Under the pieces are notes generated by a model. The model saw only the letters and a program-made list of their open reading frames with translations, searched no databases and was not told where the DNA came from. Shown piece after piece: positions 3,901-64,000 of a stretch of 64,000 nucleotides of DNA. The DNA lies in NCBI GenBank assembly GCA_016931185.1, contig JAFGFI010000018.1:1135-65134 (forward strand). The letters run 5' to 3'. Within the stretch, counting starts at the first letter, position 1. Every line of letters starts with the position of its first letter. The stretch is from Anaerolineae bacterium. Lineage in GTDB: Bacteria; Chloroflexota; Anaerolineae; B4-G1; SLSP01. Position numbers and translations under genes: made by a program.

Positions 3901-3982
3901 TAATGGCTGTCAGGATAAGCGCGCTAACTTCTAGTAATAGGAAGTAAGTATAAAAAGTTTTTCGACGCCCGCGCTTTACCAA
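962..3982 (-). CDS. Hybrid sensor histidine kinase (two TM helices around an extracytoplasmic domain, PAS, DHp, HATPase_c with insertion, REC, C-terminal helical domain)
   Basis: 1006-aa ORF with TTG start. H-box MSHELRTPLN, N-box NLLGNAVKFT, G1 DTGVGI, G2 GTGLGV. Receiver ILIVEDD...FMDMRMPRMDG...FVRKPF. PAS-like ERYHSMFNNNYAVMLLIDPETGRIVDAN. Confidence 0.9.
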   Translation of the reverse strand: MVKRGRRKTFYTYFLLLEVSALILTAIILSAGIWITLEWVNRSYLELHLADADKVTFFLKSQLTEASRKLDLLATLPEAERLTIAQSMFTDYSDLYQLDTEFRVVQVYKAVPGSLVFPGFSFSGGKLGSYLNRGVGKDLFSDIMRGYEDDTPSIYYAYRHNETLYLGRMNLAYIQELIVQHSRFSGTPVMLISQDGLVIVSSDPELNLYSFDLKKWTGPVSMRRTLIVGGRHWIPLIAEERAVGANVLLLIPTDLPMTLQRLLVLFLSGLLGGLMLLAGIKNRQIARSVLLPISQLTHKLEALENGRLPDTDESIHYRFDELTSIHTRFQTMVRAIIAREQNFRASEERAYDMARRIEAINRVLRESEERYHSMFNNNYAVMLLIDPETGRIVDANLAASAYYGYTRAELTTRLITEINILSAAQVYEEMQQAKSEARRHFFFRHRLASGEVRDVEVYSGPIQMGEQQLLYSIVHDITERKRMEAELIQAKENAEAANRAKSVFLANMSHELRTPLNAVLGFSELISHAPNLTQEQRENLDIIERSGAHLLALINDVLDLSKIEAGRETLQPEVFDLHEMLLGLGEMFSLRAEQGGLTMVFDFASSVPRHIYADQGKLRQILINLLGNAVKFTRKGGITMKVENREWRTEERKSQTGNQEVSDENQGTDFHSSFSILDTPPPIQLHFEVKDTGVGIAPDEIDKVFEAFVQTESGQLSRQGTGLGVPISREYVRLMGGDLTVQSEVGVGSVFSFDIQAEVVDVAREVDARTARRVIGLEPGQPVYRILIVEDDEASRVLLVKLLTPLGFDVCEAVNGEEAVAISERWQPHLIFMDMRMPRMDGYEATRRIKSRINKSSHQYPIIVALTASAFEEEREGILAEGCDDFVRKPFRESAIFEVLTRHLGLRFIHASVEAETASLTTHAEKVWPGNDKLDSDIIEAQIKALNPAWIEEIHQAILEGDLEWMETLIVQIKSQMPQLAGQLTQWLYNFEYTKILELILPGNNL

Positions 3983-3987
3983 AGCTC

Positions 3988-9851: not shown

Positions 9852-10733
9852 TTATTTCTCGTAAATCATATTATCCGGCAACCGTAGTAGATATTCACCG
9901 TATTCATTTCCTTTAAGGGTTTCCGCTAATTTATAAAGTTGCACTTTATCAATGAAACCACGCCGGTAGGCAATCTCTTCTGGGCACGAGATCATCATAC
10001 CCTGCCGCTTTTGCACCGCGTGGACGAAGTTAGATGCTTCCAGCAACGACTCATGGGTTCCCGCATCCAACCAAGCCACCCCACGACCGAGGATATCTAC
10101 ACGCAATTCTCCCATCCGCAGGTAGGTGAGATTGACATCGGTAATTTCTAATTCACCGCGCGCTGAAGGTTTGAGATTCTCGGCAATCTCAACCACCCGG
10201 TTGTCATAGAAATAGATGCCCGGCACGGCGAAGTGAGAACGGGGCTGTTTGGGTTTTTCTTCAATGCTCAAGGCTGTACCATTTTCATCGAACTCAACCA
10301 CACCATAGCGCTCCGGGTCACTGACCGGGTAGGCGAAAACCAACGCGCCTGTTTCAAGTTGCGCAGCAGCGCGAAGCTTGTCCGGCAGTCCATGCCCATA
10401 GAAGATATTATCGCCCAGGATCAAGCATACAGGGTTATTGCCGATAAAGGCCTTATCCAACAAAAACGCTTGTGCAATGCCTTTTGGTTCGGCTTGCGCG
10501 CAGTAGGTAAAGTTCAACCCCCACTGGTCACCCTCCTTAAGCAGTGATTGAAACTGCGGCAGTGCTTGCGGGGTACTGATAACAAGAATATCGCGAATAT
10601 TTGCCAGCATCAACATCGAGAGTGGGTAGTAAATCATGGGTTTATCATAAACCGGCTGCATTTGTTTACTTGTGCTCAATGTAATAGGATACAAACGTGT
10701 GCCATGTCCTCCAGCTAAGATGATACCTTTCAT
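9852..10733 (-). CDS. rfbA: Glucose-1-phosphate thymidylyltransferase
   Basis: [18 protein letters not shown] nucleotidyltransferase signature. The 293-aa length is typical of RmlA/RfbA. Confidence 0.9.
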
Positions 10734-10851
10734 TATTTCGTAAGCTCCTTTCAGTTTAGTTTTAATGCGTGAAACATGATGGGTGAAATGTAATGCGTAG
10801 ATACTTCAACGTTTAGGCGTGTTACATAAAACCTAAGCGGATCCTTACATT

Positions 10852-51081: not shown

Positions 51082-51385
51082 CACATTGATAGAAGATTGT
51101 TTAATTTGATATCGTCCCATATTGTGGTTTAGACTGATATTGCACCTGAGCAAGTAAGGTAGGAAAAGATTCTCCACACTATTAAAGATAACGAGAACTA
51201 TCGGCAGATACAAGGCAAATATCCATGGTTTAGATTTCACGCACTCAATAGTTTGGCGGGGCGAGTGGCAGTGACTTGGCAACGAAGGAACGTAGGTCAT
51301 TATGTAACTCAAGCTCAAAAACTTTACTCCCCTTCCCTTTCAATGATAGGGTGACAACTTGAATTATGTATCAACAAGGAGGGAT

Positions 51386-54300
51386 ATGATGGTCAACATT
51401 AATGCAGCGAGTAAAGAACAGTTAGTTAAGCTGGCGGGAATTGGTGAGGCAAAAGCTGAAAAGATCATAACTTTTAGAGAATCTGGTGGTATCATTAACA
51501 ATATCGAAGAACTAAGGAAAATCGCTGAAGTGCAACCGCATTACTTGGCGGCACTAGAGGCAGAAATTGATTTTCATTTAGATGAAAACTCTGATAGTTT
51601 GTCTTTTATAACTGCACGGCCTTCACTTGACCTAATATCCAAACCACAAATATCTTCCGTGTTCCCAACTGATCCCTACACACCCGTAAAACCTTTGCCA
51701 TTACCTCTCTTTGGTGCCTATCAATTCACAGTGAATTTTGAGAGAATGAATAATTGCCCATTGCCCGATCTTTCAGGATATCAGTTGCTGGTAGGATATC
51801 GCATTGGTAATGTCATCACGGAATCCAAAACCCATATTCGGGAACGGACAAAAACTTATAATCTTGGTAAAAAACCTGCAATTACTATCAGTATCCCTAA
51901 ACCATTCTTGCCGGCTGCTTTTTTGGAGAATGAATTTGAACTTATTTTGTTATCTCCCGAAGAGATTACGGTATACCGTTCGTCTTTTGAGATTGATGAG
52001 GGCGATCAAGTAACAATTGGTGTCCCGCTCTATGGACAACAAACATTGGAAATTACCTGGAATAAGAATGTCGATTACAGAGGTCTCTCTTTAGAGTTAG
52101 CGTATTCGATGAATAGAGGCGCTTCAGGGATAATCGAAAGCACAAAGTCTTTTGAGTTAGGAGGAGAAGAATCTCTACAAGTTGAGTTTGATACATTTGG
52201 GCAAGTGGAAAAGCTCAGTGTTGCAGTTTACTCTAATGAAGGAATTCTTGTTTATCACAGCAAATCTACTTGGGCGGAATTGGGGGGCACAGGAAATGCA
52301 AAAAGCATAAAATGTAAGCTACCAATGCCTGAGGAAATTATATTCAATGTATCGCTTGGGCAAGGTTTATACCAAGATCATCAATTGGTGGCTAACTTTT
52401 ATATACTCGATGAAAAGACACTTTCAACCATCTGTCAGATAGAAGAAAACTATTCGATTACCTCGGAGGGGAAGTCTAAAGTTAAACTGGCTCATTACGG
52501 GCTTGTCAAAGAAATTACACTGACAGTTTATGCTCCTGCGGGGGAAGTTATTGGTAAAAAGACAATAATAAATACAGATTGGAGCGATGGAGGCACAATT
52601 ACAATTGATGCGCCACCGCGTCAACGTGCTGGGGGCAGTGGGCTTGATGAAACGCTTCCTAACCGCCCGAAAAAGACTACAGGACGGGCTATTGACGTAA
52701 GAGGGAAGAAAAAGCTTGAGGGTATTCAGATCATAATCTATGCTTCAAAAGTTCCAAACCCGCAAGAGGCAGATTATGTGCCTCTGTTAGTGCTTCAAAC
52801 CGAGACGGACGGATATTTCTTGTTTGATACGCCAATAGGGTATTATGAGAAAGCGTATGCTATGGTAGGAACACCCAAAAAGGGCGAAGCTGAGAAAGGT
52901 GTATGTAAAGTTGATATCTGTCTTGAACCGGACTTTGTAGAAAAACTCCAACAAGGTGGCCCTCCTAAGAAAGTTGAAAAAAAATTCTTCCCGGGGCGCT
53001 TGCTTTTGGTTATTGATGCTGAATCTGAGTCGCATGGCAAGGATGGGGGCGATTGCGACGATTGCAAAGACTTGAATTTTCATCGTCACAAAGCAGTCGT
53101 AGATGAATTCTCATACTATACAGTGGTTCGAACCACTGAACCTGACATTCAAGGGTATACATTGGAAGAGGATGGGGATGTAACTCTCCAAAAAGTCTTG
53201 GAAGTTGCACCTATCGTTGGGGAAGATGCGAACAGCATACCTCTTGCTATGCGATTTCAGCCAGTGCGTCGCTCCATATTGAATAAATATGTGAATGACC
53301 GGCGAGGTTTGACACTAACAACATTGAAAAAAGCATTGGCAGAAAGTAATGCACGGAAATTGCGGGAACTTATTAAGCCAACGCGCCGCCATCAAACACC
53401 AGGAAGGCACACGTTAGATTTAGATCATGCTATTGATTGGGATAAAGACCCCACTATTTATCAAGCTACAACAATCGCTCATGGCCACTTACTGCACTAT
53501 AAGCAGGAGTGGAAGAACAACGGGTTCGGCATAGGAGATTTGCTCTACAGTTTACCGCTTGCTCCCGGGCAGCAAAAACAAATTGTAGTATTTGACTGGG
53601 AACGCCGTGATTCAGCAAGCCGCAGCGAATCTCTCGATTACCAAGAGAGTCTCTACAATTCCTTAACTCGTGATCGTGATGTAAACGAGATTGTTACGGG
53701 GGTCTTGCGTGAAAGTGTGCGCGGCGGGTCAACAGCTAAAACATCGTCTCGTTCCGGGGGATTGGGTATTGCCGCCATTTCTGGCTCAGTAGGGGGGCTG
53801 TTGGGGATTGCAGGCGGTTCAAGTAAGTCTAGTTCCACTGCTTGGCAAGACTCTTCTCGCAATACAGCATTGCAGGACATGCAACAAATTCGTGACCGGA
53901 CCGTTCAGTCGGCGAACTCGGTCCGTAGTCTGCGTAGCACTGTGGTGACCACGGCAACTCAAGGTGAACGCTTCTCGGTGGAAACAGAGGTTATTGCGAA
54001 TTATAATCACTGTCATTCACTCACAATGCAATACTTCGAAGTATTGCGGCATATGCAAGTTGAAGTACGACTTTCATCAGTGCAAGAGTGTCTATTCATT
54101 CCTTTGATAATGTCGTCTTTTGATCACCAAAAGATTTTACGTTGGCGCGAACCCCTTGCCGGATACATACTTGATGAACAGCTACGCTGTGGCTTTGATG
54201 CAATAGGGCGGATCGAAAACGATTATGAGGGAAGTGACTTGCCTGAAGGTATGTATGCAGAAGATGAAATTGAATACTGGTCTGGTGATTTATATATCAA

Positions 54301-56545
54301 ATTTGATATTCCCTGCCCGGCAGATCTGGAACTCTTTGAAAAAAAGGAGGAGTTGCGTGAGGCTTTATCGCCTTTTATATTCTGGGGATCTTCCATTGAT
54401 CGGTTAATTGACAAAGTTTATGAACAAGCGGCTAACAAGCGTAATGAAGCCTTCTACCGTTTCGTAGCCCCCGAAATTGCAGCGGCAATTGCAGATAAGC
54501 TGCGATTTACAGCAGTTATTCGGCAAGAAAGTAATGAATACTCCGTAGAACTAAATGTTGATACAACACTGGTTTCACGGTTCCAAAATGGACAAAACCA
54601 TTACATCAGCGTGCGAGAACTTACTAGGCAAACTCCCATCAAGCGCATAGATATTGAGGCTATTACAATCCATATTGATGCAAGCACACAATTGAAAAGC
54701 GGCGAGAGCATTGAAGAATTTTTACCCAGTAACACACGGATCATTGTAACCTCAGGCAGTATGAACTATCGCAGTAAGCACTATTCAGGGCTTTTATTCA
54801 AGTCTTCGCGCATCAACAACGACTTAGTTGGCTATGGGGGGGTTTCTTCTAATGATTACGTACGTATCCCAACCCCACTGAGTCACGAGGAAATGCGAAA
54901 CCCCCGGAACGAGGATCTCGAATCAGCCGATCATCTGCGACAGCATTTGAATGACAATCTGGAGTACTATCACAAAATCATCTGGATGAATATGAGCCCA
55001 GAACGTCGCTTTATGTTCCTGGATGGCATTCGGATAACCGATTATTCGGAAGGGGATCGGTATCCTTCTGGCGTGATCAGAAGTGTTGCTTCAGTTGTGG
55101 AAAACAGAGTGATTGGTATTGCCGGGAATAGCTTGGTGATGCCGGTGGCCCCGGGTTTTCGATTGGATCCCAATACACGCGGCCAATATGTAGACCTTCT
55201 TTCCCTTTATCAACCATTGACTCCAGTTGAACCCATTAATATCACGATACCAACGAAAGGCGTATTTGCCGAAGCAGTCATAGGAAAATGCAATAGTTGT
55301 GAGAAAATCCAAAATGATCGCTTCTGGAAATGGGAAGAACATCCAATACCTCACGCACCGACTGAAATTGCAGCAATCGGCACTGAAAGCCGTCGTAGCG
55401 CGCCGCTTGATACTACACCTTCAAGTCTTCCTAATCCTGTGGTTAATATTCAAAATGCCCCGGCGATTCCTGATCCTACAGGGTTATCAGCCGCCGCCAA
55501 CTTGTTAGAACAGGCACGTTTTGAGGATATCACCGGCTTAACTCAGAACCAACAAAATGCCCTGGAAGCATTAAAAGCGTCGCTTAGTGCAGCTCAGGCA
55601 TTTGGTTCGAAGGCTGGCGATATGGCAGCGTTGGGAGCGCAACTTGATAGTATCAGGATCGCTAAAGAAAACAACTTGATCGGTGAAGACAAAGCGCGAG
55701 AACTGAGCGAAAAAGCAATTGAGAATGCTGCCGCCGGTGGGGGAACACCGATTACTGAAGGCTTGTCTGAGTTGAAAAAAGTTCGGGAGATGGCAAAAAA
55801 TGGCACGATTACTGGGGATGTGGAACAAACCGTTACCGACGCTGTTGTCAGTAAAATTAAGCAGGACGCTCAAGGAAAGAAAGATAGTGATATTGGTCAA
55901 ATCATAGATAGAGGCGCATCATTGGTGGGAACAGGTATGGTTACAAATATGACTGCAAAGGCCACTGAGCCGGATGGTAAAACGTCCGAATTGACGTTAG
56001 CGAGTAGCGTAGTAGCTATGCCCCCCACGCCAAAACTGATACTAAGGAGAACAGGAGTTGAGTTTGAAGTTAGCTGCCCCACTGATTTTAGCCCGATTAC
56101 AATTGGTAATTTCAGAACTGTATGTGAGAACGGGAAGCTATATTATTGGGATACTACTGAGTCAGATAAGAATCATAAAAAATTGGTAAAAGGATATCGG
56201 AGCAAGTTAATTGTAGAAAATCCAGATGGCACATCTGAAGAATTTGATGCAATTGAACGGGCTAATGGTTTTACGCATCTTAAAGAAGGCACCTATCAAG
56301 CTACCTGTGAGCCAAGGGCCAGCCATCAAGATAAAGAGGAAATATTGGTGAAGGAGGCCATCTTCATCCATGTGGCAAACTACCCATATCAATTGCATGG
56401 GTGCATTGCACCTGGAGAAATTTGGCCGGAATTTGGTGTTTCCAATTCTACAGCCACATTAGCTAGAATCAATAGCCTCTTGGGATGGGAAAGCGGAAAG
56501 AAAATCGAGCTCGTAGTGAAAGGTTACAAGGAAAAGCCTGGATGA
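51386..56545 (+). CDS. Giant multidomain protein of unknown function (HhH, 3 beta-sandwich-like repeats, CarboxypepD_reg-like, conserved core with glycine-zipper, YkuD-like HGC C-terminal domain)
   Basis: Track ORF 51359..56545 has a TTG start. AAGGAGGG lies directly upstream of ATG 51386. ComEA-like HhH NAASKEQLVKLAGIGEAKAEKI. Glycine zipper GLGIAAISGSVGGLLGIAGG. C-terminal IHVANYPYQLHGCIAPG. Confidence 0.7.
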   Translation: MMVNINAASKEQLVKLAGIGEAKAEKIITFRESGGIINNIEELRKIAEVQPHYLAALEAEIDFHLDENSDSLSFITARPSLDLISKPQISSVFPTDPYTPVKPLPLPLFGAYQFTVNFERMNNCPLPDLSGYQLLVGYRIGNVITESKTHIRERTKTYNLGKKPAITISIPKPFLPAAFLENEFELILLSPEEITVYRSSFEIDEGDQVTIGVPLYGQQTLEITWNKNVDYRGLSLELAYSMNRGASGIIESTKSFELGGEESLQVEFDTFGQVEKLSVAVYSNEGILVYHSKSTWAELGGTGNAKSIKCKLPMPEEIIFNVSLGQGLYQDHQLVANFYILDEKTLSTICQIEENYSITSEGKSKVKLAHYGLVKEITLTVYAPAGEVIGKKTIINTDWSDGGTITIDAPPRQRAGGSGLDETLPNRPKKTTGRAIDVRGKKKLEGIQIIIYASKVPNPQEADYVPLLVLQTETDGYFLFDTPIGYYEKAYAMVGTPKKGEAEKGVCKVDICLEPDFVEKLQQGGPPKKVEKKFFPGRLLLVIDAESESHGKDGGDCDDCKDLNFHRHKAVVDEFSYYTVVRTTEPDIQGYTLEEDGDVTLQKVLEVAPIVGEDANSIPLAMRFQPVRRSILNKYVNDRRGLTLTTLKKALAESNARKLRELIKPTRRHQTPGRHTLDLDHAIDWDKDPTIYQATTIAHGHLLHYKQEWKNNGFGIGDLLYSLPLAPGQQKQIVVFDWERRDSASRSESLDYQESLYNSLTRDRDVNEIVTGVLRESVRGGSTAKTSSRSGGLGIAAISGSVGGLLGIAGGSSKSSSTAWQDSSRNTALQDMQQIRDRTVQSANSVRSLRSTVVTTATQGERFSVETEVIANYNHCHSLTMQYFEVLRHMQVEVRLSSVQECLFIPLIMSSFDHQKILRWREPLAGYILDEQLRCGFDAIGRIENDYEGSDLPEGMYAEDEIEYWSGDLYIKFDIPCPADLELFEKKEELREALSPFIFWGSSIDRLIDKVYEQAANKRNEAFYRFVAPEIAAAIADKLRFTAVIRQESNEYSVELNVDTTLVSRFQNGQNHYISVRELTRQTPIKRIDIEAITIHIDASTQLKSGESIEEFLPSNTRIIVTSGSMNYRSKHYSGLLFKSSRINNDLVGYGGVSSNDYVRIPTPLSHEEMRNPRNEDLESADHLRQHLNDNLEYYHKIIWMNMSPERRFMFLDGIRITDYSEGDRYPSGVIRSVASVVENRVIGIAGNSLVMPVAPGFRLDPNTRGQYVDLLSLYQPLTPVEPINITIPTKGVFAEAVIGKCNSCEKIQNDRFWKWEEHPIPHAPTEIAAIGTESRRSAPLDTTPSSLPNPVVNIQNAPAIPDPTGLSAAANLLEQARFEDITGLTQNQQNALEALKASLSAAQAFGSKAGDMAALGAQLDSIRIAKENNLIGEDKARELSEKAIENAAAGGGTPITEGLSELKKVREMAKNGTITGDVEQTVTDAVVSKIKQDAQGKKDSDIGQIIDRGASLVGTGMVTNMTAKATEPDGKTSELTLASSVVAMPPTPKLILRRTGVEFEVSCPTDFSPITIGNFRTVCENGKLYYWDTTESDKNHKKLVKGYRSKLIVENPDGTSEEFDAIERANGFTHLKEGTYQATCEPRASHQDKEEILVKEAIFIHVANYPYQLHGCIAPGEIWPEFGVSNSTATLARINSLLGWESGKKIELVVKGYKEKPG

Positions 56546-56576
56546 GAGAACACTTAAACATTGACGGAGGTCTAAA

Positions 56577-57128
56577 ATGAATCGCATATTTAGCATCGCT
56601 CAAGGGATATCCGTTCCCGACGGAACAACCGTATATCCTTTCCTGAATTCCAAGGACGAGACTAGCGGCTTACCCTGGAGTCTCTTGGATGGTTTTAGTC
56701 TCTCGGCTGGGGTGGTTGCGCCTAAGAGTTCATCCAAGATACACATTATGCCCTTGGTGACTCAGGTGACCTTTGTCCTTGAGGGTACTATCGAAATATG
56801 GATGAAAGGCTCAGAAAATCCAGAGCCATACAAGCAGGTTTTGACCTCACGACAAGCGATTCTAACCAATCCCGGTGCTTTTTTCCAACTCGTCAATAGC
56901 TCTATGGCGGTTTGCTGGTTGCTCTACATCGTTAGCCCTGCCTATGTATTTGAACTTAGTGATGAGAACGAAGTGATATACGATGACTCAATCATTCTCA
57001 ATGAAAATTGGAAAGAATTAGAAGCAAAAAACTGGCTTTCAGCAAACCCTTGTGATGTTGAAAAGATGCGAGAAGATAGGGCAGTTGCATCTGCACGATT
57101 GGCGGCACAGTCGCGAGCGAGATCATAA
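56577..57128 (+). CDS. Cupin-like beta-barrel protein (no clear metal-binding His cluster)
   Basis: 183-aa ORF with GGAGG upstream. SKIHIMPLVTQVTFVLEGTIEIWMKG and PGAFFQLVN resemble the two cupin motifs. Confidence 0.45.
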   Translation: MNRIFSIAQGISVPDGTTVYPFLNSKDETSGLPWSLLDGFSLSAGVVAPKSSSKIHIMPLVTQVTFVLEGTIEIWMKGSENPEPYKQVLTSRQAILTNPGAFFQLVNSSMAVCWLLYIVSPAYVFELSDENEVIYDDSIILNENWKELEAKNWLSANPCDVEKMREDRAVASARLAAQSRARS

Positions 57129-57204
57129 TAATGCCAATCATTTATCTGAGTCATACTATACCTGAACGGTTGTAGTTTACTATATTTACGACGGAGATAC
57201 TATT

Positions 57205-58617
57205 ATGCCCACTCAAGCGGATTACGAAACAGATGGTATCTTACCTATCATCTATCAACAACTACGTTCTACATTGATAGACTGCGGCCCCTTCTCCAGT
57301 CACGACGAACTCAAAGCCGTTTTCGTCGACAACCGCATCCACCCTTGGCGCAAGTGGATACCTGAAGCCAAAAGCGCCAGCAGCCGCGTCGAAGCCGTTA
57401 TTGACTTTCTCTACAACCAATATACCAGTACGCAGGACAATGCTTTGGTACTGCTGTTGCATGTGTTGAGCGAACGCAAAGAAACTGGTGATGCTTGTCA
57501 TCAAAAGTTGTTCAAATTAGCTGATGATCTCAGCAAAGGATTAGAATCCCATCTTTCTCCTGATGGAACACCACTAACACCACCACCCGATATGTTGCCC
57601 CGGAAATCCTACGATCACTTCACAGGCCGTGCGAAAGAACTACAACAGTTATTGGATGCGCTCCGCAACCCAGATCAGTACCAGTTGATTGCTATATACG
57701 GGTTGGGCGGTATTGGCAAAACTGCATTGGCCCGCGAAGCGTTGGAAGATTGCCGCGATGAGAAATTATTCCAGCACATCGTTTGGATGAGTGCCAAGAC
57801 AGAGCGTTTTGAAGGGGAGGGGACCCATAGACTACCGGTTTCTTCTTTTTCTCTTGACGACATTCTGAATGAAATTGCGCGCCAGTGTCACTTGCCTCAT
57901 CTAGCAAAACTCCCGTCTACAGAAAAGGTTGCGAATATCCAACACATTCTGGCTAACCGCCCTGTGCTCATCGTATTGGACAATATGGAAACGGTCAAAG
58001 ATTGTAAGGAAGTTGTAGGACAATTGGTCGAACTTTTAACAGGGCAAACCAAGTTTTTATTGACCAGCAAACTCCATATTACAAACATCAGCGCTTTTGA
58101 AATGCGCTTGCTAGGGCTTTCACCAGAGAATGGCGAGCTTTTTATGCGTCGCGAAGGCCGCAGTCAAGGTGCATCGGAAGTTGCGGATGCACCTTCAGAC
58201 ATACTTCAGAATATCGTGGGGGTATGCGGCGGTGCTCCGTTAGCGATGAAATTGATCGTCAGCCAATTAAAGCGCCGCGCTTTACAAGATGTGCTGGATA
58301 ATCTTAAAGTGGTTACGTCTGATGGCCCCGACTACGACTTCTACCGCTTTATTTACAAAGGCTCTTGGGATTTATTGAGCTTGGATGCCAAAAAAGTGTT
58401 GGTTTCGATGTCAGTCTTTGATTTGGAGAGCGGTGGGCGCGCTGATATGATGCGCGAGGTCAGCGATGTGGCCCCAGATGCCTTTGAAGACGCGGTGGTT
58501 GAACTGGTGATGATGTCATTAACGAACCTGGTAGGGCAGTTAGGCCAACGGCGCTACACACTGCATCAATTGACCTACTATTTCATTTTATCAGACATTG
58601 TAAAGAAATGGGGGTAA
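57205..58617 (+). CDS. NB-ARC (AP-ATPase) STAND NTPase with N-terminal helical adaptor-like domain
   Basis: Walker A IYGLGGIGKTALA, Walker B VLIVLDNME, GxP motif CGGAPLAMKLI. About 140 aa of helical N-terminal extension. Confidence 0.8.
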   Translation: MPTQADYETDGILPIIYQQLRSTLIDCGPFSSHDELKAVFVDNRIHPWRKWIPEAKSASSRVEAVIDFLYNQYTSTQDNALVLLLHVLSERKETGDACHQKLFKLADDLSKGLESHLSPDGTPLTPPPDMLPRKSYDHFTGRAKELQQLLDALRNPDQYQLIAIYGLGGIGKTALAREALEDCRDEKLFQHIVWMSAKTERFEGEGTHRLPVSSFSLDDILNEIARQCHLPHLAKLPSTEKVANIQHILANRPVLIVLDNMETVKDCKEVVGQLVELLTGQTKFLLTSKLHITNISAFEMRLLGLSPENGELFMRREGRSQGASEVADAPSDILQNIVGVCGGAPLAMKLIVSQLKRRALQDVLDNLKVVTSDGPDYDFYRFIYKGSWDLLSLDAKKVLVSMSVFDLESGGRADMMREVSDVAPDAFEDAVVELVMMSLTNLVGQLGQRRYTLHQLTYYFILSDIVKKWG

Positions 58618-58620
58618 AGA

Positions 58621-59829
58621 GTGATGAGTGAAGAACCTGAATGGCTGTCATTTTATCAAGATCGGGGACGCCGGCACGCAACCCTGGCATTAGCGTTTGC
58701 AGTACAGCACGGGCAAAATACACCGGAGGCACATCAGCAGTTGGCACAGGAACTCCCCAACATGGTCAGGGCGCTAGAGTGGATGCAAACGCACACTCAC
58801 TGGCACAATATCGCACATTTGTTCTCGGCTTTGTGGGAAGAAAGCCGATTTCTACAGGATCGTGGCCCGGCTCCTGCGTACCTCATTGAGGGAAAAGGGC
58901 ATTTGCTGCCTGCTGCCGATTTGCTCCCCCTGCTGGAAATGGGTGTGCTGGCGGCACGCGAACTAAAGGATAACCATAAACTATGCATGTGTTTAAACGC
59001 ACTGGGAAGCACGTTGCGAGCAATGGGCAAGGTTGATGAGGCGCTTGCGCTACATAATGAAGCCTTGACCATAGCACAGCAATTCGAGGATGCATCTCCT
59101 GCGCGCCAGACGCTTTCTCTTTTGGGCATGGTGTGGATTGATAAAGATGTAAACCAGGCGTTACCTCACTTGCAAAAGGCACTTAACACACCAGTATCCC
59201 ACACCAATGTGGAACTGGATATTGATCTCTTTGGCGCACTTGCAACCGCTCACGCGCAACTGGGGCAAATGGCATTGTTGAACCAGCTAAGCGAGCCGGG
59301 AAAGGCGGCTTTCGAGAAGGCCGCTACCTATCTGGAAAAGGCATTAGGCTTAGCAACAAAATCCCAGGATAAGCGACGCCAGGCAGAACTATATCACCAA
59401 CGTGGGTATTTGCGCAGCGTTACAAATGACTTGGAGAATGCGCGTGCCGATTTTCAGCAGGCTGCCGACCTTAGTAAAGAAGTAGGCCATCAATGGGGAT
59501 ATGGACGAGCTTTACAGGCTTTAGGAGTTCTGCGTATACAAATCGGGCAGGTAGCGCAGAACACCAATAAAGTCGCGCTAGGTATCACCGATTTAGAAAA
59601 GGCTCTGACGTTGCTAGAACAAACCGGGGATGGAGAAATCATAGCTTCCACATTGGCAGCCTTAGGCCAGGGATATGCGCTTTTGGGGCAGTTAGATATG
59701 GCAAAAGCACATTTGGAACATGCATTGGAAGTTATCAAGGCTTTTAGTGATTTACCCAAGATCGCAGCCTTGGAACAGGCGATTTTGCCGTTATTAGCTT
59801 ATGTAAAGCAAGCGAAAGGAGAAAAGTGA
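58621..59829 (+). CDS. TPR-repeat protein (expected sensor arm of the preceding NB-ARC module)
   Basis: 402-aa ORF, same reading frame as 57205..58617, separated by TAA plus one codon. Repeated A..Y...G / L..A..I helical pairs (ALALHNEALTIAQQFED, AELYHQRGYLRSVTNDLENARADF). Confidence 0.75.
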   Translation: MMSEEPEWLSFYQDRGRRHATLALAFAVQHGQNTPEAHQQLAQELPNMVRALEWMQTHTHWHNIAHLFSALWEESRFLQDRGPAPAYLIEGKGHLLPAADLLPLLEMGVLAARELKDNHKLCMCLNALGSTLRAMGKVDEALALHNEALTIAQQFEDASPARQTLSLLGMVWIDKDVNQALPHLQKALNTPVSHTNVELDIDLFGALATAHAQLGQMALLNQLSEPGKAAFEKAATYLEKALGLATKSQDKRRQAELYHQRGYLRSVTNDLENARADFQQAADLSKEVGHQWGYGRALQALGVLRIQIGQVAQNTNKVALGITDLEKALTLLEQTGDGEIIASTLAALGQGYALLGQLDMAKAHLEHALEVIKAFSDLPKIAALEQAILPLLAYVKQAKGEK

Positions 59830-59830
59830 G

Positions 59831-60892
59831 ATGGTTATACCAGCTTTGATGATCGGATTGTTAATTGCTAAAGGACTGACGGTGGTCGGACCAAAGCACG
59901 AATACCTGGAAAAACATGATCCAAATCTCCCCTTCTACGAAGAAGACACTTTTCCTACCTTGTTGGAGAAAATAGCGCCTTACACACATTCGAGGTTTCA
60001 GCTACACATAAATCGTTCGGCCGATCTTTTTGCTCAATTACACACAATGTTGATGCTTTTGCAAGGGGCAACTATGGATTTCGCAAAGGGTAGGATTGAT
60101 CATTCCAACATGCAGCCAGGGTATCAGTATGATAATTACGAAACTATTCTTGTGAATGCTTATAGTAATGAGGAGGACAAAAAGATAATTGACGGCAAAC
60201 TAAACGCAATTTCCAAAGTATCTGATGAGAGCTTTGGTGAGTATATTATTGATCATTACCAAGATATGGCGAAGTGTTTGGTGGGATATTTGGATATAGC
60301 ATCGAAATTAACAAACGGTTTTGACATTTCGGGCTGCTTAAATGAATGTCAAAATACCATAGGGAAGTTACCACCCGGTGACTCTATTAAAAAGACATGC
60401 ATGACTGAGTTCCTGGCATTAACGCGCCTTCTGTTTTCTGGGGTAGATTTAAAGAAGGTGCTGGACTTAGCTACTAACTTAAATCTAAATGTTCCTCCTC
60501 ACGAATGGCTTGATCAACAATTATCAGCGGGTACCCTATGGCAGGACGTGGTAAATTATTATGCTTCTCCTGCCGCTACATCTAAGGCAAAACTTACCCT
60601 GAGTCATATCTATGTGATGTTGGAAGAAAGTTATTGGTTTTACAATAGAATTCGCTATAAAGACCCTCATAATCCGGAGATGAGCAACAATCGATTAGGC
60701 ATAGATTTTAAATGCGCGATCGGATTTGATGATGAAGGAAAGTGTGACAATCTAAATACAGGCCAACTTCCTGCTGGATACCAAGCCACATGGGAGAAGT
60801 TGCGTCTGGCGTTACATGGCGCAGTCGCGTGGTATATGTATTGCCTCTGCGCTTATGCAGTAAATGAGATTAAAGCTGCGTTAACCCCGTGA
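59831..60892 (+). CDS. Orphan protein with N-terminal hydrophobic helix
   Basis: 353-aa ORF. Its ATG lies 1 nt after the TPR stop, which suggests translational coupling. N-terminal MVIPALMIGLLIAKGLTVVG. No recognised domain. Confidence 0.5.
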   Translation: MVIPALMIGLLIAKGLTVVGPKHEYLEKHDPNLPFYEEDTFPTLLEKIAPYTHSRFQLHINRSADLFAQLHTMLMLLQGATMDFAKGRIDHSNMQPGYQYDNYETILVNAYSNEEDKKIIDGKLNAISKVSDESFGEYIIDHYQDMAKCLVGYLDIASKLTNGFDISGCLNECQNTIGKLPPGDSIKKTCMTEFLALTRLLFSGVDLKKVLDLATNLNLNVPPHEWLDQQLSAGTLWQDVVNYYASPAATSKAKLTLSHIYVMLEESYWFYNRIRYKDPHNPEMSNNRLGIDFKCAIGFDDEGKCDNLNTGQLPAGYQATWEKLRLALHGAVAWYMYCLCAYAVNEIKAALTP

Positions 60893-60983
60893 TCTCTACT
60901 CGCGGGCGGTTGCGTGAGTGTGGGCAGAACCGTGTAAATGTCGGTTCTACTCTACATATCACTTGTTATAAGGAGAGTGAGCA

Positions 60984-63900
60984 ATGACTGAGCAATCCAC
61001 GTATCAGGATTTTGATGTATTCCTAGACTGTAAATTGGATGCGAACAATAATTTCCAAAACATCACACTTAAAGATGCTGAGGGTAACAAATGTACAGTT
61101 CATTACAACTTTTCAAAACCTGTTGGGAGGATTAAAAAAGCGATGGCAATGGCCAAGCACACTACAGAATCTTCTCAATGGCTAGACGAATTAGGCGCGG
61201 AACTTCAAGGGCTTTTCTTTCCCAATACCGGTGAAGGCCGCAACTTAACTGATAAATTCTGCGGGTTTCTAAAAAAGTTGGGAAACTCAGGCAAGGCGCG
61301 GCTCCGGTTATTTTATCCCAACGATGTGAATAAAATTATTGCGTTGCTGGGTGTTCCCTGGGAGTATCTCTATCTAGACTCGCAGTGTACTGGATTAGAA
61401 AAGAGTTACTTGTGCCTCAACAAACGTTTTTCGCTGGTGCATTGTTTGATCAATAAACCAGAAGAACTTGGCAAATGCGAACACTTACCTCTTAAAGCAT
61501 CTTTCTATATGCATTTAGAGAATGTGCAATCGGTAATTAAGGAGCTTGATATAATTCAATATTTAGCTCTTGGAGAAAAAGAAAAGCTTGCATTCGCAGG
61601 GAATGACCCTCAGAGGAAAGGCGAAATAGATTTGCTTGTTCAGCGCGCTAACGATTTGGTTATTATGTACAAGGAGATAGCCTATGATCTGAAGCAGTCT
61701 GGGCGCCCTCATATTATCCAACTATCAGGATATCATGAGATGCTAGAAAAAGAACATATACAGTGGGCAACTGAGACCTTTGACATAATCCAATATTTGG
61801 CTCATGGAGATATTGACGGACTGGCGTTAGCAAACGGTGACACCTACAAGAAAGCAGAAATAATAAACGATATTCAGAAACCTAAGACTAAAGTTGTTAT
61901 TCTAGGTGTGTGTAGTAGCGCGAGTAGTTACTCAGGAGCAGCCGTGGCTTTCCATGAAGCCGGTGTCCCCATTGTCGTTGGAATGACCCAGATAACCGCT
62001 ACATCCGTAGCCAGTAGTTTCTTAGAAGCCTTGTACACGCAGTTAGCAGAACGTCTGTGTAGTGTGGAAGAAGCGGTGGCAGTCGCTCGGAGTCAGTTAT
62101 ACGAAGAGAAGGGTTGCGATCAATTTTCTTTGCATTGGGGAATACCGCGCCTCTTTATGCGCAGTACTCATAGCGACCTCATTGACCGACAATCCTTGTA
62201 TGAACGTGTCTATAACATATCCACTTGCAAAGAAATCAGAGAAAAAATCCTGCCACCGGAACAATCGATAGATATTCAATCTTTTGTTCGTTGGTCAAAA
62301 ACTTTGAGAGAATGGATTGATAGCGAGAAAGTAGGCATGCTTTATCTTTATGGCCGGGATGGGAGTGCCAAAAGTACCGAGGTGGCGCGCTTGTTACACG
62401 AGTACGATGGACAGAACAATAAACCTAAGCTGTTAGGCCACTTTTGCCGTAATGATGATCATCAAACTTCTAATCCTCTCATATTCGTTCGCGACTCGCT
62501 GTACCCCCAGCTTGAAGATTACTATGGGGCTGACTTTTATCGAGGATACTTGAGAGGGGTGTTTCCTAGGGCTGCTTATGACGCTAGATTTGCATTTTAC
62601 AATCTATTTCTCCTTCCCCTTAGCCGAATTCGCGAGAAAAACCCAGAGGCCCGTTTGCCTACAATTATTATCGACGCAATTGATGATGCTGTAGCGCGCT
62701 ATCCAAGCGAGTCTATTCTTGATCTGTTAATTGACCACCAACATGCGATCACCCAAGTTGCTCGCGTGATCATTACCGGTAACTACTCAGAAGAACCTGA
62801 TTCTCCTCATCAACGCATTCGCGTGGAACTGGAACCGGAGATTATTAGCATATCAGAAGATATTATATCTTGTGGACAACTACCAACCATCAAAGAGACT
62901 GATATTGAAGAAAAGATACCAGATGCATCGCTGCGAGCGCTCACTTTTAAGCACATAAACGAAATTTGTGAACCGGAGCAAAAAATGCAATTGTGGCGCT
63001 TCTTGTCGGATTGTGGTGCTGATCTGCGCAAAGTCTTATGTGGGATAAGCAAGTCGGACAAAAAACCGCTTCCATTGGAAAACTACTATCAAGCGTATTT
63101 GGATATTGTGAAGAGTAAGAATGAATATGCTGAAGACTTGCTACGCGTGTTGCTTGTTGCATATAGACCGCTCTCGGCAAAGTTTTTGAAACAACTTTTT
63201 CAAGAAGTAGAAATCTTGAATGTTTCAAAGGTTATGGACGAGATGCCGGCATTTATTCATAGTACGGATAGTGTTTACACATGTCACAGCAGTATCAGAC
63301 GCTTTCTAAATGAAAAACTTTTCTTTTGCCCCGATCCTAACAAAATCATAAAACCCCCGCGTGATGAAAGTCTTAAGCCGAATTATAGCGCCAGGTCAGA
63401 TGCTCATGGTTTTTTTATGAATTTATATGCCGGGGAGGAGATGGTCAAATTGCAAAATTGGTATGAATTGAATGAAAAATGGGGGAACTATGTTCAAAAT
63501 TACCTACCTTTGCATGCCTACAAGTGTTATCAGTATGCCTGTTATGGTTATATGGAAATATCAAATGAAATTGATGATCCTGCGGAACTTTGGGATCACT
63601 TTTCCCAAGAGTATGACCAAGGAATCAGAGATGGTGAATATTATACGCGGTCTAGTCTGGGAAATTTAAATTATGTAGACGGGCAGTCTTGGAATAGGCG
63701 TTCTCTTAGTGCAATGGCATTTCTACACCTTATCAGCCAACCTTCTTTTCGCGAATTCCGTATGTACACAGAAGGCACAGAGGCAGTTGTTGACGATATG
63801 CTTTTTGGTTTAAGAGTTACTTTGTTTGAACACATGTTGAACCTTTCAATTATGCTTGCTCCCAATTATGGATCAAAAGAATACAGTAAACATAGACAAG

Positions 63901-64000
63901 GTTTTGCTCGCTTGATAACAGCTTACGAGCATATTCTGGACATTTTAACGGAGGATAAAGAGAAGGAGTTGATCGGCCTCGAACGAAAAGTACGAGGGGT
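60984..64000 (+). CDS. CHAT (caspase-fold) protease fused to a P-loop STAND-like NTPase; 3' partial
   Basis: Not in the ORF track because no stop occurs before the window end. My hand translation from ATG 60984 (AGGAGAG upstream) stays open to 64000. LRLFYPNDV...LGVPWEYLYLD. His in QYLAHGD (codon about 61803-61805). Cys in VVILGVCSSASS (codon about 61911-61913). P-loop-like LYLYGRDGSAKST and Walker-B-like PTIIIDAIDDA. Confidence 0.75.
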   Translation, partial: MTEQSTYQDFDVFLDCKLDANNNFQNITLKDAEGNKCTVHYNFSKPVGRIKKAMAMAKHTTESSQWLDELGAELQGLFFPNTGEGRNLTDKFCGFLKKLGNSGKARLRLFYPNDVNKIIALLGVPWEYLYLDSQCTGLEKSYLCLNKRFSLVHCLINKPEELGKCEHLPLKASFYMHLENVQSVIKELDIIQYLALGEKEKLAFAGNDPQRKGEIDLLVQRANDLVIMYKEIAYDLKQSGRPHIIQLSGYHEMLEKEHIQWATETFDIIQYLAHGDIDGLALANGDTYKKAEIINDIQKPKTKVVILGVCSSASSYSGAAVAFHEAGVPIVVGMTQITATSVASSFLEALYTQLAERLCSVEEAVAVARSQLYEEKGCDQFSLHWGIPRLFMRSTHSDLIDRQSLYERVYNISTCKEIREKILPPEQSIDIQSFVRWSKTLREWIDSEKVGMLYLYGRDGSAKSTEVARLLHEYDGQNNKPKLLGHFCRNDDHQTSNPLIFVRDSLYPQLEDYYGADFYRGYLRGVFPRAAYDARFAFYNLFLLPLSRIREKNPEARLPTIIIDAIDDAVARYPSESILDLLIDHQHAITQVARVIITGNYSEEPDSPHQRIRVELEPEIISISEDIISCGQLPTIKETDIEEKIPDASLRALTFKHINEICEPEQKMQLWRFLSDCGADLRKVLCGISKSDKKPLPLENYYQAYLDIVKSKNEYAEDLLRVLLVAYRPLSAKFLKQLFQEVEILNVSKVMDEMPAFIHSTDSVYTCHSSIRRFLNEKLFFCPDPNKIIKPPRDESLKPNYSARSDAHGFFMNLYAGEEMVKLQNWYELNEKWGNYVQNYLPLHAYKCYQYACYGYMEISNEIDDPAELWDHFSQEYDQGIRDGEYYTRSSLGNLNYVDGQSWNRRSLSAMAFLHLISQPSFREFRMYTEGTEAVVDDMLFGLRVTLFEHMLNLSIMLAPNYGSKEYSKHRQGFARLITAYEHILDILTEDKEKELIGLERKVRG

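What the first reader, a model, noticed from the sequence alone, without database searches (positions are those of the whole stretch)
60984..64000. CHAT-protease / P-loop NTPase fusion that the ORF track does not list
No plus-strand ORF is listed between 60893 and 62061. Even so, the frame starting at ATG 60984 (AGGAGAG upstream) stays open to the last base of the window, so the gene was omitted only because it has no stop inside the window. The translation shows a CHAT domain with a His (QYLAHGD) and Cys (LGVCSSASS) dyad. It is followed by a P-loop-like GRDGSAKST, a Walker-B-like IIIDAIDDA, and a long helical region. Protease-STAND fusions are typical signal-activated executioners.
Basis: partly seen in the sequence, partly recalled or inferred. 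Interest (0 to 1): 0.65.

Follow-up and report, generated by a model that had tools for sequence, protein, structure and literature searches.

The report
Caspase-like protease–NTPase in four-gene cassette
The open frame is a real gene for a caspase-like (CHAT) protease fused to an NLR-type ATPase, a known kind of bacterial cell-death or immunity protein, and it is always the last gene of a rare, apparently undescribed four-gene cassette that also encodes a second, different NLR-type ATPase.

Summary
ATG 60984 opens a frame with no stop for 1005 codons to the window end. An identical public contig shows the gene ends 114 nt later (1043 aa), so no large C-terminal sensor is missing. Pfam CHAT and NPHP3_N (a NACHT-like NTPase) both pass their curated cut-offs. 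His274 and Cys310 are invariant in 30 relatives, the Walker A Lys and a NACHT-type Walker B (IIDAIDD) are conserved, and an AlphaFold model matches STAND NTPases (Apaf-1, MalT, NOD2, Avs4) and separase. NCBI already annotates the protein as "CHAT domain-containing protein" from an Anaerolineae MAG. Caspase–STAND fusions are a described class, so the fusion alone is ordinary. The new point is context. In 7 of 7 informative contigs, at only ~25% identity, the gene is the last of a conserved cassette: adaptor–NB-ARC ATPase (bDLD1 here), a separate TPR protein, an uncharacterised ~350-aa helical protein, then the CHAT–NTPase. I read this as an inflammasome-like, two-STAND conflict system in which NB-ARC/TPR senses and the CHAT–NTPase executes by proteolysis. 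That mechanism is inferred, not shown. The family is rare: about 32 clusters among 1.84 billion representatives.

The parts
57205..58617 (+). Cassette gene 1: 470-aa STAND NTPase with an N-terminal bacterial Death-like domain 1 (aa 12-104) and an NB-ARC/AP-ATPase module (aa 144-360)
   Evidence: Pfam bDLD1 PF20689 36.9 bits (cut-off 25) and NB-ARC PF00931 61.6 bits. The NB-ARC core is 45-49% identical to the gene at the same position in L016, L019, L020 and L021, while the N-terminal ~120 aa do not align.
58621..59829 (+). Cassette gene 2: separate TPR-repeat protein (402 aa from GTG 58621; the Logan gene call starts at ATG 58624, 401 aa). It is the likely sensor/repeat arm of the NB-ARC protein, encoded as a separate gene.
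   Evidence: Pfam TPR_12 67 bits plus other TPR families. It lies 2-7 nt after the NB-ARC gene in every locus and is 27-30% identical across cassettes.
59831..60892 (+). Cassette gene 3: uncharacterised 353-aa protein (NCBI JXA33_01225), predicted all-helical, with no known domain. In six of the seven loci it is tightly coupled to the CHAT gene.
   Evidence: No Pfam, NCBIfam, PADLOC or PHROG hit. It is homologous to the gene at the same position in other cassettes: BLASTP 6e-6 to L018 and 5e-4 to L016, with a full-length alignment sharing EWL..L and AW..L..A...W motifs. The AF2 model is poor (pLDDT 36.8) and only suggests helices.
60893..60983 (+). 91-nt intergenic spacer with the ribosome-binding site AGGAGAG (60971-60977). 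The gene 3 to CHAT gap is unusually long here; it is 1-25 nt in the other six loci.
   Evidence: No terminator-like site was found on the + strand in this spacer.
60984..64000 (+). Cassette gene 4: CHAT protease-NACHT-like STAND NTPase, residues 1-1005 of 1043. The stop codon lies 114 nt beyond the window.
60984..61283 (+). N-terminal alpha+beta module (aa 1-100) preceding the caspase fold; unassigned
   Evidence: AF2 secondary structure shows strands 7-40 and helices 48-99. There is no Pfam hit even at E<=5 and no similarity to the bDLD1 of gene 1.
61284..62183 (+). CHAT (caspase-fold) protease domain, aa ~101-400, with catalytic His274 (61803-61805) and Cys310 (61911-61913)
   Evidence: Pfam CHAT above cut-off. 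His and Cys are invariant in 30/30. PDB 8tl0 'CHAT domain-containing protein' aligns across the dyad (E 9e-5). Separase 5fc2/5fby appear in the Foldseek hits.
61521..61649 (+). Lineage-specific ~40-aa insertion in the CHAT domain (aa ~180-222) carrying an old internal duplicate of the His strand (DIIQYLALGE vs DIIQYLAHGD), with His replaced by Leu
   Evidence: Absent from P0002 and P0003. 42/66 nt are identical between the two copies, with no exact DNA repeat. Model confidence is low here.
62289..62798 (+). P-loop nucleotide-binding domain (aa ~436-605): Walker A GRDGSAKST (62352-62378) and NACHT-type Walker B IIIDAIDDA (62664-62690)
   Evidence: Pfam NPHP3_N above cut-off. 24/30 family members hit NPHP3_N and 6/30 hit NACHT. 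Motif table.
62799..63383 (+). Helical and winged-helix modules of the STAND core (aa ~606-800)
   Evidence: AF2 model and Foldseek matches spanning NBD-HD-WHD of 6mfv, MalT 8bob, Apaf-1 3sfz and NOD2 5irm.
63384..64000 (+). Conserved C-terminal helical domain (aa ~801-1043, truncated at aa 1005 by the window end)
   Evidence: Family-invariant Y836, H844 and L916. Mean pairwise identity is 0.34, no lower than the CHAT domain.

Best explanation
The ORF encodes a 1043-aa, probably active clan-CD (CHAT, caspase-fold) cysteine protease fused to a NACHT-like STAND NTPase and a conserved helical C-terminal domain. It is the fourth gene of a conserved cassette: (1) an adaptor-NB-ARC STAND NTPase (bDLD1 Death-like domain here, EAD7 or an unassigned helical domain elsewhere), (2) a separately encoded TPR protein, (3) an uncharacterised ~350-aa helical protein, (4) the CHAT-NTPase. 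Proposed mechanism, all of it inferred: the NB-ARC/TPR pair is the nucleotide-gated sensor. On detecting an invader or stress signal it triggers NTP-dependent oligomerisation of the CHAT-NTPase, which brings the caspase-like domains together and activates them, as in an apoptosome or inflammasome. The protease then cleaves a target, most plausibly the tightly co-encoded gene-3 protein (a pro-toxin or inhibitor) and/or host proteins, causing growth arrest or death of the infected cell. The Death-like/EAD domain on the NB-ARC protein additionally recruits effectors that carry the same adaptor and are encoded elsewhere, as with TIR-EAD7 next to one cassette. Shown here: gene integrity, domain identities, conservation of catalytic residues, and cassette conservation. 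Inferred: the trigger, the order of events, the substrate, and the defence role.
For: The ORF is intact and its full length is known. CHAT and NPHP3_N pass their Pfam cut-offs. His274 and Cys310 are invariant in 30/30, and Walker A Lys463 and Walker B Asp567 are conserved in at least 90%. The AF2 model (pLDDT 78.3) matches STAND NTPases (6mfv 7.8e-8, Apaf-1 3sfz 2e-6, MalT, NOD2, Avs4, plant NLRs) and separase, and PDB CHAT 8tl0 matches by sequence. The cassette NB-ARC -> TPR -> ~320-375-aa unknown -> CHAT-NTPase is present in 7/7 contigs with enough upstream sequence, although the CHAT-NTPases are only 24-26% identical. Gaps are 2-7 nt for NB-ARC/TPR and 1-25 nt for gene 3/CHAT in six of seven loci. 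Gene 3 is homologous across cassettes. bDLD1 sits on the NB-ARC here. EAD7-NB-ARC together with an adjacent TIR-EAD7 in the P0012 contig fits the published EAD-coupling principle (PMC7159879, PMC8195603). Published analogues exist: caspase N-terminal effectors on bacterial NACHT/NLR proteins, AP-ATPase-TPR genes linked to caspases, and experimentally validated NLR-like ATPase + CARD-protease + effector defence operons.
Against: There is no functional data for any member. No PADLOC defence model hits the window CHAT-NTPase or gene 3, and no recognised defence genes flank the cassette, whose neighbours are housekeeping or signalling genes. No relatives were found on plasmids or phages. No second bDLD1 copy exists in 64.5 kb, and no Death-like domain is detectable on the CHAT protein, so there is no identified physical link between gene 1 and gene 4. 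The window's Walker A has Ala where Gly is usual (GSAKST), and 4/30 relatives have degraded P-loops, so NTP hydrolysis may not be essential. The NB-ARC N-terminal domain in four other cassettes is not a recognised adaptor and has faint HTH-like hits, which would allow a transcriptional role. The structure of gene 3 could not be predicted.
Confidence: 0.6

Rival explanations
1. Stand-alone single-protein sensor-effector, like Avs or bNACHT. The CHAT-NTPase senses its trigger through its own C-terminal helical domain, oligomerises and proteolyses. The upstream NB-ARC/TPR genes form an independent system that merely sits next to it in a defence island.
For: The tripartite effector-NTPase-C-terminal layout matches bNACHT/Avs proteins. 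The window has a 91-nt gap with its own RBS before the gene. No shared adaptor domain links gene 1 and gene 4.
Against: The same four-gene order is retained in 7/7 informative contigs at ~25% identity of the CHAT-NTPase, which is far beyond chance adjacency. The C-terminal domain is short, conserved and not hypervariable, unlike typical sensor arms.
Confidence: 0.15
2. Not anti-phage defence. The cassette is a regulatory or developmental proteolysis module of filamentous Chloroflexota, for example programmed cell death, kin discrimination or stress signalling, in which NB-ARC/TPR acts as a MalT/AfsR-like ligand-gated switch, possibly transcriptional.
For: The family is known only from Anaerolineae MAGs and metagenomes. 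Flanking genes are housekeeping genes (gatCAB and aspS in the P0012 contig; sensor kinases and glycosidases here). There are no PADLOC hits. Four cassettes have an unassigned NB-ARC N-terminal domain with faint HTH-like similarity. NCBIfam gives weak AfsR-like matches for genes 1 and 2. The literature ties such systems to a multicellular habit (PMC7159879).
Against: Death-like/EAD adaptors and an adjacent TIR-EAD7 are hallmarks of predicted conflict systems. The variable adaptor on a conserved core and the low G+C of the locus (0.42 against ~0.50-0.55 nearby) suggest horizontal mobility and arms-race dynamics.
Confidence: 0.17
3. The NTPase module of gene 4 is a nucleotide-independent scaffold (iSTAND-like). 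The only working switch is the NB-ARC of gene 1, and the CHAT protein is a passive protease platform.
For: The Walker A has Ala in place of the second Gly in the window protein and P0002, and P-loops are degraded in P0007, P0018, P0020 and P0032 while His/Cys remain invariant. The usual sensor-1 Arg (TSR/TTR) position is not conserved. Inactive STAND modules are documented in related systems (PMC8195603).
Against: Walker A Lys and Walker B acidic residues are retained in at least 90% of members, including the window protein. The NBD is the most conserved region of the protein (0.38 mean identity).
Confidence: 0.07
4. Artefact: a chance open frame or a pseudogene fragment at the contig edge.
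For: None beyond the fact that the ORF is truncated by the window.
Against: P(no stop) is about 3e-29. The complete gene is on an identical contig. Full-length homologues exist, and catalytic residues are conserved.
Confidence: 0.01

Closest known systems
Bacterial NLR-related proteins with N-terminal caspase/CHAT effectors (bNACHT class of Kibby et al., bioRxiv 10.1101/2022.07.19.500537; 'all-in-one' CHAT-NOD proteins of Dyrka et al., bioRxiv 10.1101/2020.01.06.895854; caspase-bearing Apaf-1 orthologues, PMC13581612)
   Same: N-terminal caspase-fold protease, central NACHT-like STAND NTPase with a D[GAS]hD[DE] Walker B, and a C-terminal helical region.
   Different: No PADLOC (2023) defence model hits the window protein. 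The C-terminal region is short, with no LRR, WD40, TPR or FGS array, and is conserved rather than variable. The protein is never seen alone here but always follows NB-ARC, TPR and gene 3.
CARD-like domain / NLR-like ATPase / protease / effector operons, i.e. bacterial gasdermin type II systems and relatives (Wein et al., PMC10312443)
   Same: A multi-gene operon combining a repeat-bearing STAND ATPase, a Death-fold adaptor, a protease and a variable co-encoded protein, giving inflammasome-like logic.
   Different: The protease here is caspase-fold CHAT, not trypsin-like, and is fused to its own second STAND NTPase. The Death-like domain is on the NB-ARC protein, not detectably on the protease. 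There is no gasdermin, nuclease or phospholipase; gene 3 has no known domain. The TPR arm is a separate gene.
EAD/Death-like-domain coupled conflict systems, including AP-ATPase-TPR genes linked to caspase genes (Kaur, Burroughs, Iyer, Aravind: PMC7159879, PMC8195603)
   Same: bDLD1 or EAD7 at the N-terminus of an AP-ATPase (NB-ARC), a caspase-superfamily protease in the same neighbourhood, a TIR-EAD7 partner next to one cassette, and a host lineage with multicellular (filamentous) habit.
   Different: bDLD1 was described in vWA-MoxR ternary systems, and no MoxR or vWA gene occurs in this cassette. No paired bDLD1 effector exists within 64.5 kb. I did not find this particular four-gene arrangement, with a second NACHT-like STAND fused to the caspase and a constant unknown gene, in the text of these papers. 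Their supplementary tables were not searched.
EACC1-caspase and EACC2-caspase two-gene systems (PMC7159879, PMC8195603)
   Same: A constant upstream gene tightly coupled to a downstream gene whose product starts with a constant module plus a caspase domain and can carry a STAND NTPase C-terminally. This parallels gene 3 + gene 4, which also has an N-terminal alpha+beta module before the caspase.
   Different: No EACC1 family was among the Pfam hits to gene 3, which is ~350 aa and helical rather than a small single-TM protein, and its hydrophobic N-terminus is not conserved in the family. EACC2 and TRADD-N could not be tested with a profile; no such hit appeared.
Eukaryotic apoptosome/inflammasome and paired sensor-helper NLRs (Apaf-1/caspase-9; NAIP-NLRC4; plant sensor/helper NLRs); comparison from general knowledge
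   Same: Death-fold adaptor, NB-ARC and NACHT-type NTPases, and a caspase-fold protease, with two different STAND NTPases encoded together.
   Different: The protease is covalently fused to one of the NTPases. There is no evidence yet of hetero-oligomerisation. Similarity is at the domain level only (Apaf-1 Foldseek E 2e-6, ~11% identity).

Membership tests
CHAT / clan CD caspase-fold peptidases (Pfam PF12770) | Profile match above the curated gathering score | tested here: met
   34.2 bits against a cut-off of 24, aa 256-385, covering profile positions 132-281 of 289. 27/30 family members hit CHAT.
CHAT / clan CD caspase-fold peptidases (Pfam PF12770) | Catalytic His...Cys dyad after consecutive beta-strands | tested here: met
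   His274 (in HG) and Cys310 are invariant in 30/30 and align with the dyad region of PDB 8tl0 CHAT.
CHAT / clan CD caspase-fold peptidases (Pfam PF12770) | Caspase-hemoglobinase fold | tested here: met
   The AF2 model shows an alpha/beta domain at aa ~104-400 with high pLDDT, and separase protease domains 5fc2_B (8.7e-6) and 5fby_A appear in the Foldseek hits. Only the whole model could be searched, so there is no domain-level TM-score.
CHAT / clan CD caspase-fold peptidases (Pfam PF12770) | Peptidase activity | not testable with these tools
   Requires biochemistry.
STAND NTPases | Walker A and Walker B motifs | tested here: met
   GRDGSAKST (Lys463) and IIIDAIDDA (Asp564, Asp567). Lys and Asp567 are at least 90% conserved. 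Ala462 replaces the usual Gly.
STAND NTPases | NBD-helical-winged-helix core resembling Apaf-1/MalT/NLR structures | tested here: met
   Foldseek: 6mfv 7.8e-8, 8bob 1e-6, 3sfz 2e-6, 8dgf 1e-5, 5irm 2.6e-5, plus ORC/Cdc6.
NACHT clade of STAND | Small residue after the Walker B Asp, followed two positions later by acidic residues (D[GAS]hD[DE]); NACHT-family profile match | tested here: inconclusive
   The signature is met (DAIDD; family consensus DGLD) and NPHP3_N passes its cut-off (32.4 against 24.8). However, Pfam NACHT PF05729 itself does not hit the window protein, and only 6/30 relatives hit it at E<=1e-3. The sensor-1 Arg of the TSR motif is not conserved.
Known anti-phage STAND families (Avs1-5, bNACHT and others in PADLOC-DB 2.0) | Match to a defence-system protein model | tested here: not met
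   0 PADLOC hits for the window protein at E<=0.01. A few relatives give weak, scattered hits (PDC-M16A, mad8).
EAD-coupled conflict systems (Kaur et al.) | The same adaptor (EAD/bDLD) on a core NTPase and on an effector encoded nearby | tested here: not met
   bDLD1 occurs only on gene 1. phmmer and jackhmmer of its aa 1-118 against all ORFs of window+L001 find no second copy. The feature is met in a related cassette: EAD7-NB-ARC plus TIR-EAD7 in the P0012 contig. A partner elsewhere in the genome cannot be excluded.
EACC1-caspase two-gene system | Upstream gene encoding the EACC1 single-TM domain | tested here: not met
   Gene 3 has no Pfam hit at E<=0.1, is ~350 aa, and its hydrophobic N-terminus is absent in L016, L019, L020 and L021.
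Bacterial gasdermin-protease systems | Adjacent gasdermin gene | tested here: not met
   No gasdermin family hit for gene 3 or other neighbours. Gene 3 is predicted all-helical.
Conserved four-gene cassette defined here (NB-ARC / TPR / gene 3 / CHAT-NTPase) | All four genes in this order on one strand | tested here: met
   Window 57205-64000(+114). The same order occurs in the P0012 contig, L016, L018 (gene 1 cut), L019, L020 and L021.

The most novel reading that the evidence does not exclude
The cassette is a bacterial sensor-helper pair of NLR-type proteins. A ligand-bound NB-ARC/TPR STAND (gene 1 + gene 2) nucleates hetero-oligomerisation of a different, NACHT-like STAND that carries a caspase-fold protease (gene 4). 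That protease then cleaves the constant, previously unknown gene-3 protein to release a new kind of cell-killing effector. This would be a prokaryotic counterpart of NAIP-NLRC4 or plant sensor/helper NLR pairs, with a built-in caspase.
Probability: 0.15. Interest if true: 0.75.

Novelty: new variant of a known kind. Interest (0 to 1): 0.45.

Why it matters
Caspase-STAND fusions are already catalogued, so the gene alone adds little. What stands out is that two different STAND NTPases are strictly co-inherited with a constant protein of unknown fold. One is an NB-ARC with a Death-like adaptor and a split-off TPR arm, and the other is NACHT-like with a fused caspase-fold protease. If the two NTPases signal to each other, the cassette would be a compact bacterial model for sensor-helper NLR pairing and for apoptosome-style caspase activation. 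Gene 3 would then be a candidate new protease-activated effector or regulator. The cassette also gives the little-studied bDLD1 adaptor a context outside the vWA-MoxR systems in which it was described.

Tried and rejected
1. A large missing C-terminal sensor: rejected, since the gene ends 38 aa past the window.
2. A Death-like adaptor on the CHAT protein or gene 3 that pairs with the bDLD1 of gene 1: no sequence similarity and no Pfam hit at permissive thresholds.
3. Gene 3 as an EACC1-like membrane protein, a gasdermin, or a Bell/HeLo-like pore former: there are no profile hits. The N-terminal hydrophobic helix appears only in the window protein and P0005, with a shorter stretch in L018. The AF2 model was too poor (pLDDT 36.8) to run a fold search.
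4. Linking the P0005 (gene-3 homologue) contig L013 to the P0002 (CHAT) contig L002: no overlap, so untestable.
5. The third homologous-protein search, with the 30-sequence profile, returned only the same three proteins. The related-loci scans of genome and metagenome collections returned only distant CHAT domains at 23-29% identity.
6. A recent tandem DNA duplication as the source of the DIIQYLA repeat: no exact repeat, only 64% nt identity, so it is old.
7. Recent duplication as the origin of the two NTPases: hhalign aligns only the P-loop (probability 5%).
8. Plasmid or phage carriage: no tblastn hits.
9. The small Cys/Gly-rich peptide gene seen in the extended loci: absent from the window.


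Full report
OBSERVATION. Translating window 60984-64000 on the + strand gives 1005 codons with no stop. ATG 60984 is the first start codon after an in-frame TGA that ends at 60980. AGGAGAG lies at 60971-60977, with 8 nt between AGGAG and the ATG. With the local base composition, the probability of 1005 stop-free codons is about 3e-29. The ORF listing omits the gene because it does not list ORFs that run off the source.

FULL LENGTH AND IDENTITY. Looking up the neighbouring complete gene (59831-60892) returned a Logan contig, L001. It is identical to window 52525-64000 (0 mismatches in 11,476 nt) and extends 525 nt further. On that contig the gene is complete at 1043 aa, with its stop 114 nt beyond the window. 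The exact protein is in NCBI as [quoted passage not shown] on a 65,659-nt contig. It is therefore already annotated, though only generically.

DOMAINS. Pfam CHAT (34.2 bits, cut-off 24; aa 256-385) and NPHP3_N, a NACHT-like P-loop domain (32.4 bits, cut-off 24.8; aa 439-598), both pass their gathering scores. An exhaustive profile search of 1.84 billion representative proteins found 32 clusters at E<=1e-30, nearly all 870-1150 aa (two shorter, at 588 and 439 aa), most of which cover both the CHAT and NTPase regions. It also found about 1,500 weaker matches, those listed being mostly to the CHAT region alone. In a 30-member alignment, His274 and Cys310 are invariant. Gly457, Lys463 (Walker A) and Asp567 (Walker B) are conserved in at least 90% of members. 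The family's Walker B consensus, IIIDGLD, has the NACHT-type small residue after the Asp; the window protein has IIIDAIDD. The window's Walker A, GRDGSAKST, has Ala where Gly is usual. Four relatives have degraded P-loops while keeping His and Cys. An AlphaFold2 model built with the family alignment has mean pLDDT 78.3 and pTM 0.63. Foldseek against the PDB returns STAND and ORC/Cdc6 proteins (6mfv, MalT 8bob, Apaf-1 3sfz, Avs4 8dgf, NOD2 5irm, plant NLRs) and the caspase-fold protease separase (5fc2, 5fby). By sequence, the closest solved structure is 8tl0, "CHAT domain-containing protein", aligned across the catalytic dyad. From the model, the layout is: alpha+beta module (aa 1-100), CHAT (aa ~101-400), NBD (aa ~436-605), helical/winged-helix (aa ~606-800), and a conserved helical domain (aa ~801-1043). 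The C-terminal domain is as conserved as the protease (mean pairwise identity 0.34 against 0.33), so it does not behave like a fast-evolving sensor.

CONTEXT, THE MAIN NEW RESULT. Three genes lie immediately upstream on the same strand. The first is a 470-aa protein with bacterial Death-like domain 1 (bDLD1, 36.9 bits) and NB-ARC (61.6 bits). The second is a 402-aa TPR protein. The third is a 353-aa protein with no hit in Pfam, NCBIfam, PADLOC or PHROGs. Genomic look-ups of distant family members, 24-26% identical to the window protein, show the same order: NB-ARC, TPR, unannotated protein of 320-375 aa, then CHAT-NTPase. This holds in every contig with enough upstream sequence: the window, the P0012 contig, L016, L018, L019, L020 and L021. 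L017 is essentially the same locus as L016 and also shows gene 3 upstream. The contig carrying P0003 has a + strand gene of at least 320 aa ending 35 nt before the CHAT gene. L002 and L014 are too short to judge, and L015 shows only a non-significant trace. The gene-3 proteins are homologous across cassettes (BLASTP 6e-6 and 5e-4, with a full-length alignment sharing motifs). Conservation is uneven: the NB-ARC core is 45-49% identical, TPR 27-30%, CHAT-NTPase 24-26% and gene 3 about 20%. Spacing divides the cassette into two tight modules. NB-ARC/TPR gaps are 2-7 nt everywhere. Gene 3/CHAT gaps are 1-25 nt in six of seven loci and 91 nt in this window. L019, L020 and L021 carry a second NB-ARC/TPR pair upstream. 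The N-terminal ~120 aa of the NB-ARC protein vary: bDLD1 here, EAD7 in the P0012 contig, and an unassigned helical domain in four others. In the P0012 contig a TIR-EAD7 protein is encoded right after the cassette. That is the adaptor pairing predicted by the published "EAD principle" (PMC7159879, PMC8195603). In the window, no second bDLD1 exists in 64.5 kb, and the CHAT protein and gene 3 show no similarity to it. Profile-profile comparison aligns the two NTPases only at the P-loop (probability 5%), so they belong to different STAND clades and are not recent duplicates.

MECHANISM (INFERRED). The best-supported reading is an inflammasome-like, two-STAND conflict system. NB-ARC together with its split TPR arm acts as the nucleotide-gated sensor. 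The CHAT-NTPase is the executioner, and oligomerisation brings its caspase-fold domains together to activate them. The tightly coupled gene-3 protein is the most plausible substrate or partner. The Death-like/EAD domain on the NB-ARC protein can recruit further effectors that carry the same adaptor. The grounds are the domain identities, the invariant catalytic residues, the strict gene linkage, and published analogues. Those analogues are caspase effectors on bacterial NACHT/NLR proteins, AP-ATPase-TPR genes linked to caspases, and experimentally validated operons of an NLR-like ATPase, a CARD-bearing protease and an effector (PMC10312443). Not shown: the trigger, any contact between the two NTPases, the substrate, or a defence phenotype. 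Points against a defence role are the absence of PADLOC hits, the housekeeping flanks, and the absence from plasmids and phages. The locus does have lower G+C (0.42) than most of the window. The rivals are a stand-alone Avs-like protein, a developmental or regulatory module of filamentous Chloroflexota, and an NTPase-dead scaffold. They are weighed in the structured fields.

COMPARISON AND NOVELTY. As a single protein, this is a new member of a known kind: a caspase/CHAT-NACHT-like STAND fusion, already generically annotated. Some membership tests are not met. There is no PADLOC defence family, no EACC1 or gasdermin partner, and no paired adaptor in the window. NACHT-clade membership is only partly supported: the Walker B signature and NPHP3_N are met, but Pfam NACHT itself is not. 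The four-gene cassette has a split NB-ARC/TPR, a constant unknown protein and a second STAND fused to the protease. I did not find it described in the papers I could search, although supplementary tables were not searched. I rate it a new variant of a known kind. It is rare, at about 32 clusters at 50% identity, and the only named sources are Anaerolineae MAGs.

LIMITS. The context evidence rests on seven loci. Domain-level fold searches were not possible. All functional statements are inferences.

Noticed in passing
window 61521-61649 (aa ~180-222 of the CHAT protein), compared with 61782-61847: A lineage-specific insertion in the CHAT domain contains an old duplicate of the catalytic His strand (DIIQYLALGEKEKLAFAGND vs DIIQYLAHGDIDGLALANGD; 42/66 nt identical), with His replaced by Leu. 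It is absent from the 49%-identical homologues P0002 and P0003. Its role is unknown; it could be a decoy strand or a regulatory insert.
   Followed up: partly
L016 667-822 (-), L019 3674-3832 (-), L020 3477-3632 (-), L021 3414-3569 (-): A conserved 51-52-aa ORF on the opposite strand sits between the two NB-ARC/TPR pairs of the extended cassettes. It has a hydrophobic leader (MFKQRIIKVV..LAVVTGS) and an invariant C-terminal C....GGSxGGGC, resembling a secreted or RiPP-like peptide precursor. It is not present in the window.
   Followed up: partly
window 51359-56545 (+): A 1728-aa ORF directly upstream of the cassette region has an N-terminal ComEA-like helix-hairpin-helix (HHH_3, 51 bits) and a C-terminal weak DUF5675 / phrog_1501 match, with nothing recognisable in the ~1,550 aa between. 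It lies in the low-G+C part of the window and is followed by a 183-aa weakly cupin-like ORF (56577-57128).
   Followed up: no
JGI 3300075153 contig carrying P0012 (no DNA held), genes at 3495-4826 and 9893-10762: In this related cassette the NB-ARC protein carries EAD7 instead of bDLD1, and a TIR-EAD7 protein is encoded immediately downstream on the opposite strand. This is a textbook adaptor pair, and the cassette sits between gatCAB and an aspartyl/asparaginyl-tRNA synthetase gene.
   Followed up: partly
L016 1091-1510, L019 4099-4518, L020 4056-4475, L021 3817-4266: Four cassettes share a conserved, unassigned ~120-aa helical N-terminal domain on the NB-ARC protein (EKEQLVQLVGRWRERSHLTIKQIVARIQ...) in place of bDLD1. 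It has only faint HTH-like hits (HTH_32 E 0.098; Mu Gp27 E 0.005), so it could be a new adaptor or a DNA-binding domain.
   Followed up: partly
family alignment A2 (P0007, P0018, P0020, P0032): Four of 30 CHAT-NTPase relatives have degraded Walker A motifs while keeping the His/Cys dyad, which suggests the NTPase module has become nucleotide-independent in some lineages.
   Followed up: no
L021 11017-17195; L019 11310-12473: Further peptidase genes lie downstream of related cassettes: Peptidase_C1, Peptidase_C14 (a second caspase-family gene) and a transglutaminase-like gene in L021, and an astacin/M10 metallopeptidase in L019.
   Followed up: no
window 60001-64000 compared with the rest of the window: G+C falls to 0.42 over the CHAT gene and to ~0.45 over 50-58 kb, against 0.50-0.56 for much of 22-50 kb. 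This is consistent with horizontally acquired DNA.
   Followed up: no
window 60925-60952: A 7-bp inverted repeat (AGAACCG ... CGGTTCT, 9-nt loop) lies in the unusually long 91-nt spacer between gene 3 and the CHAT gene. No T-tract follows and the terminator scan did not call it.
   Followed up: no
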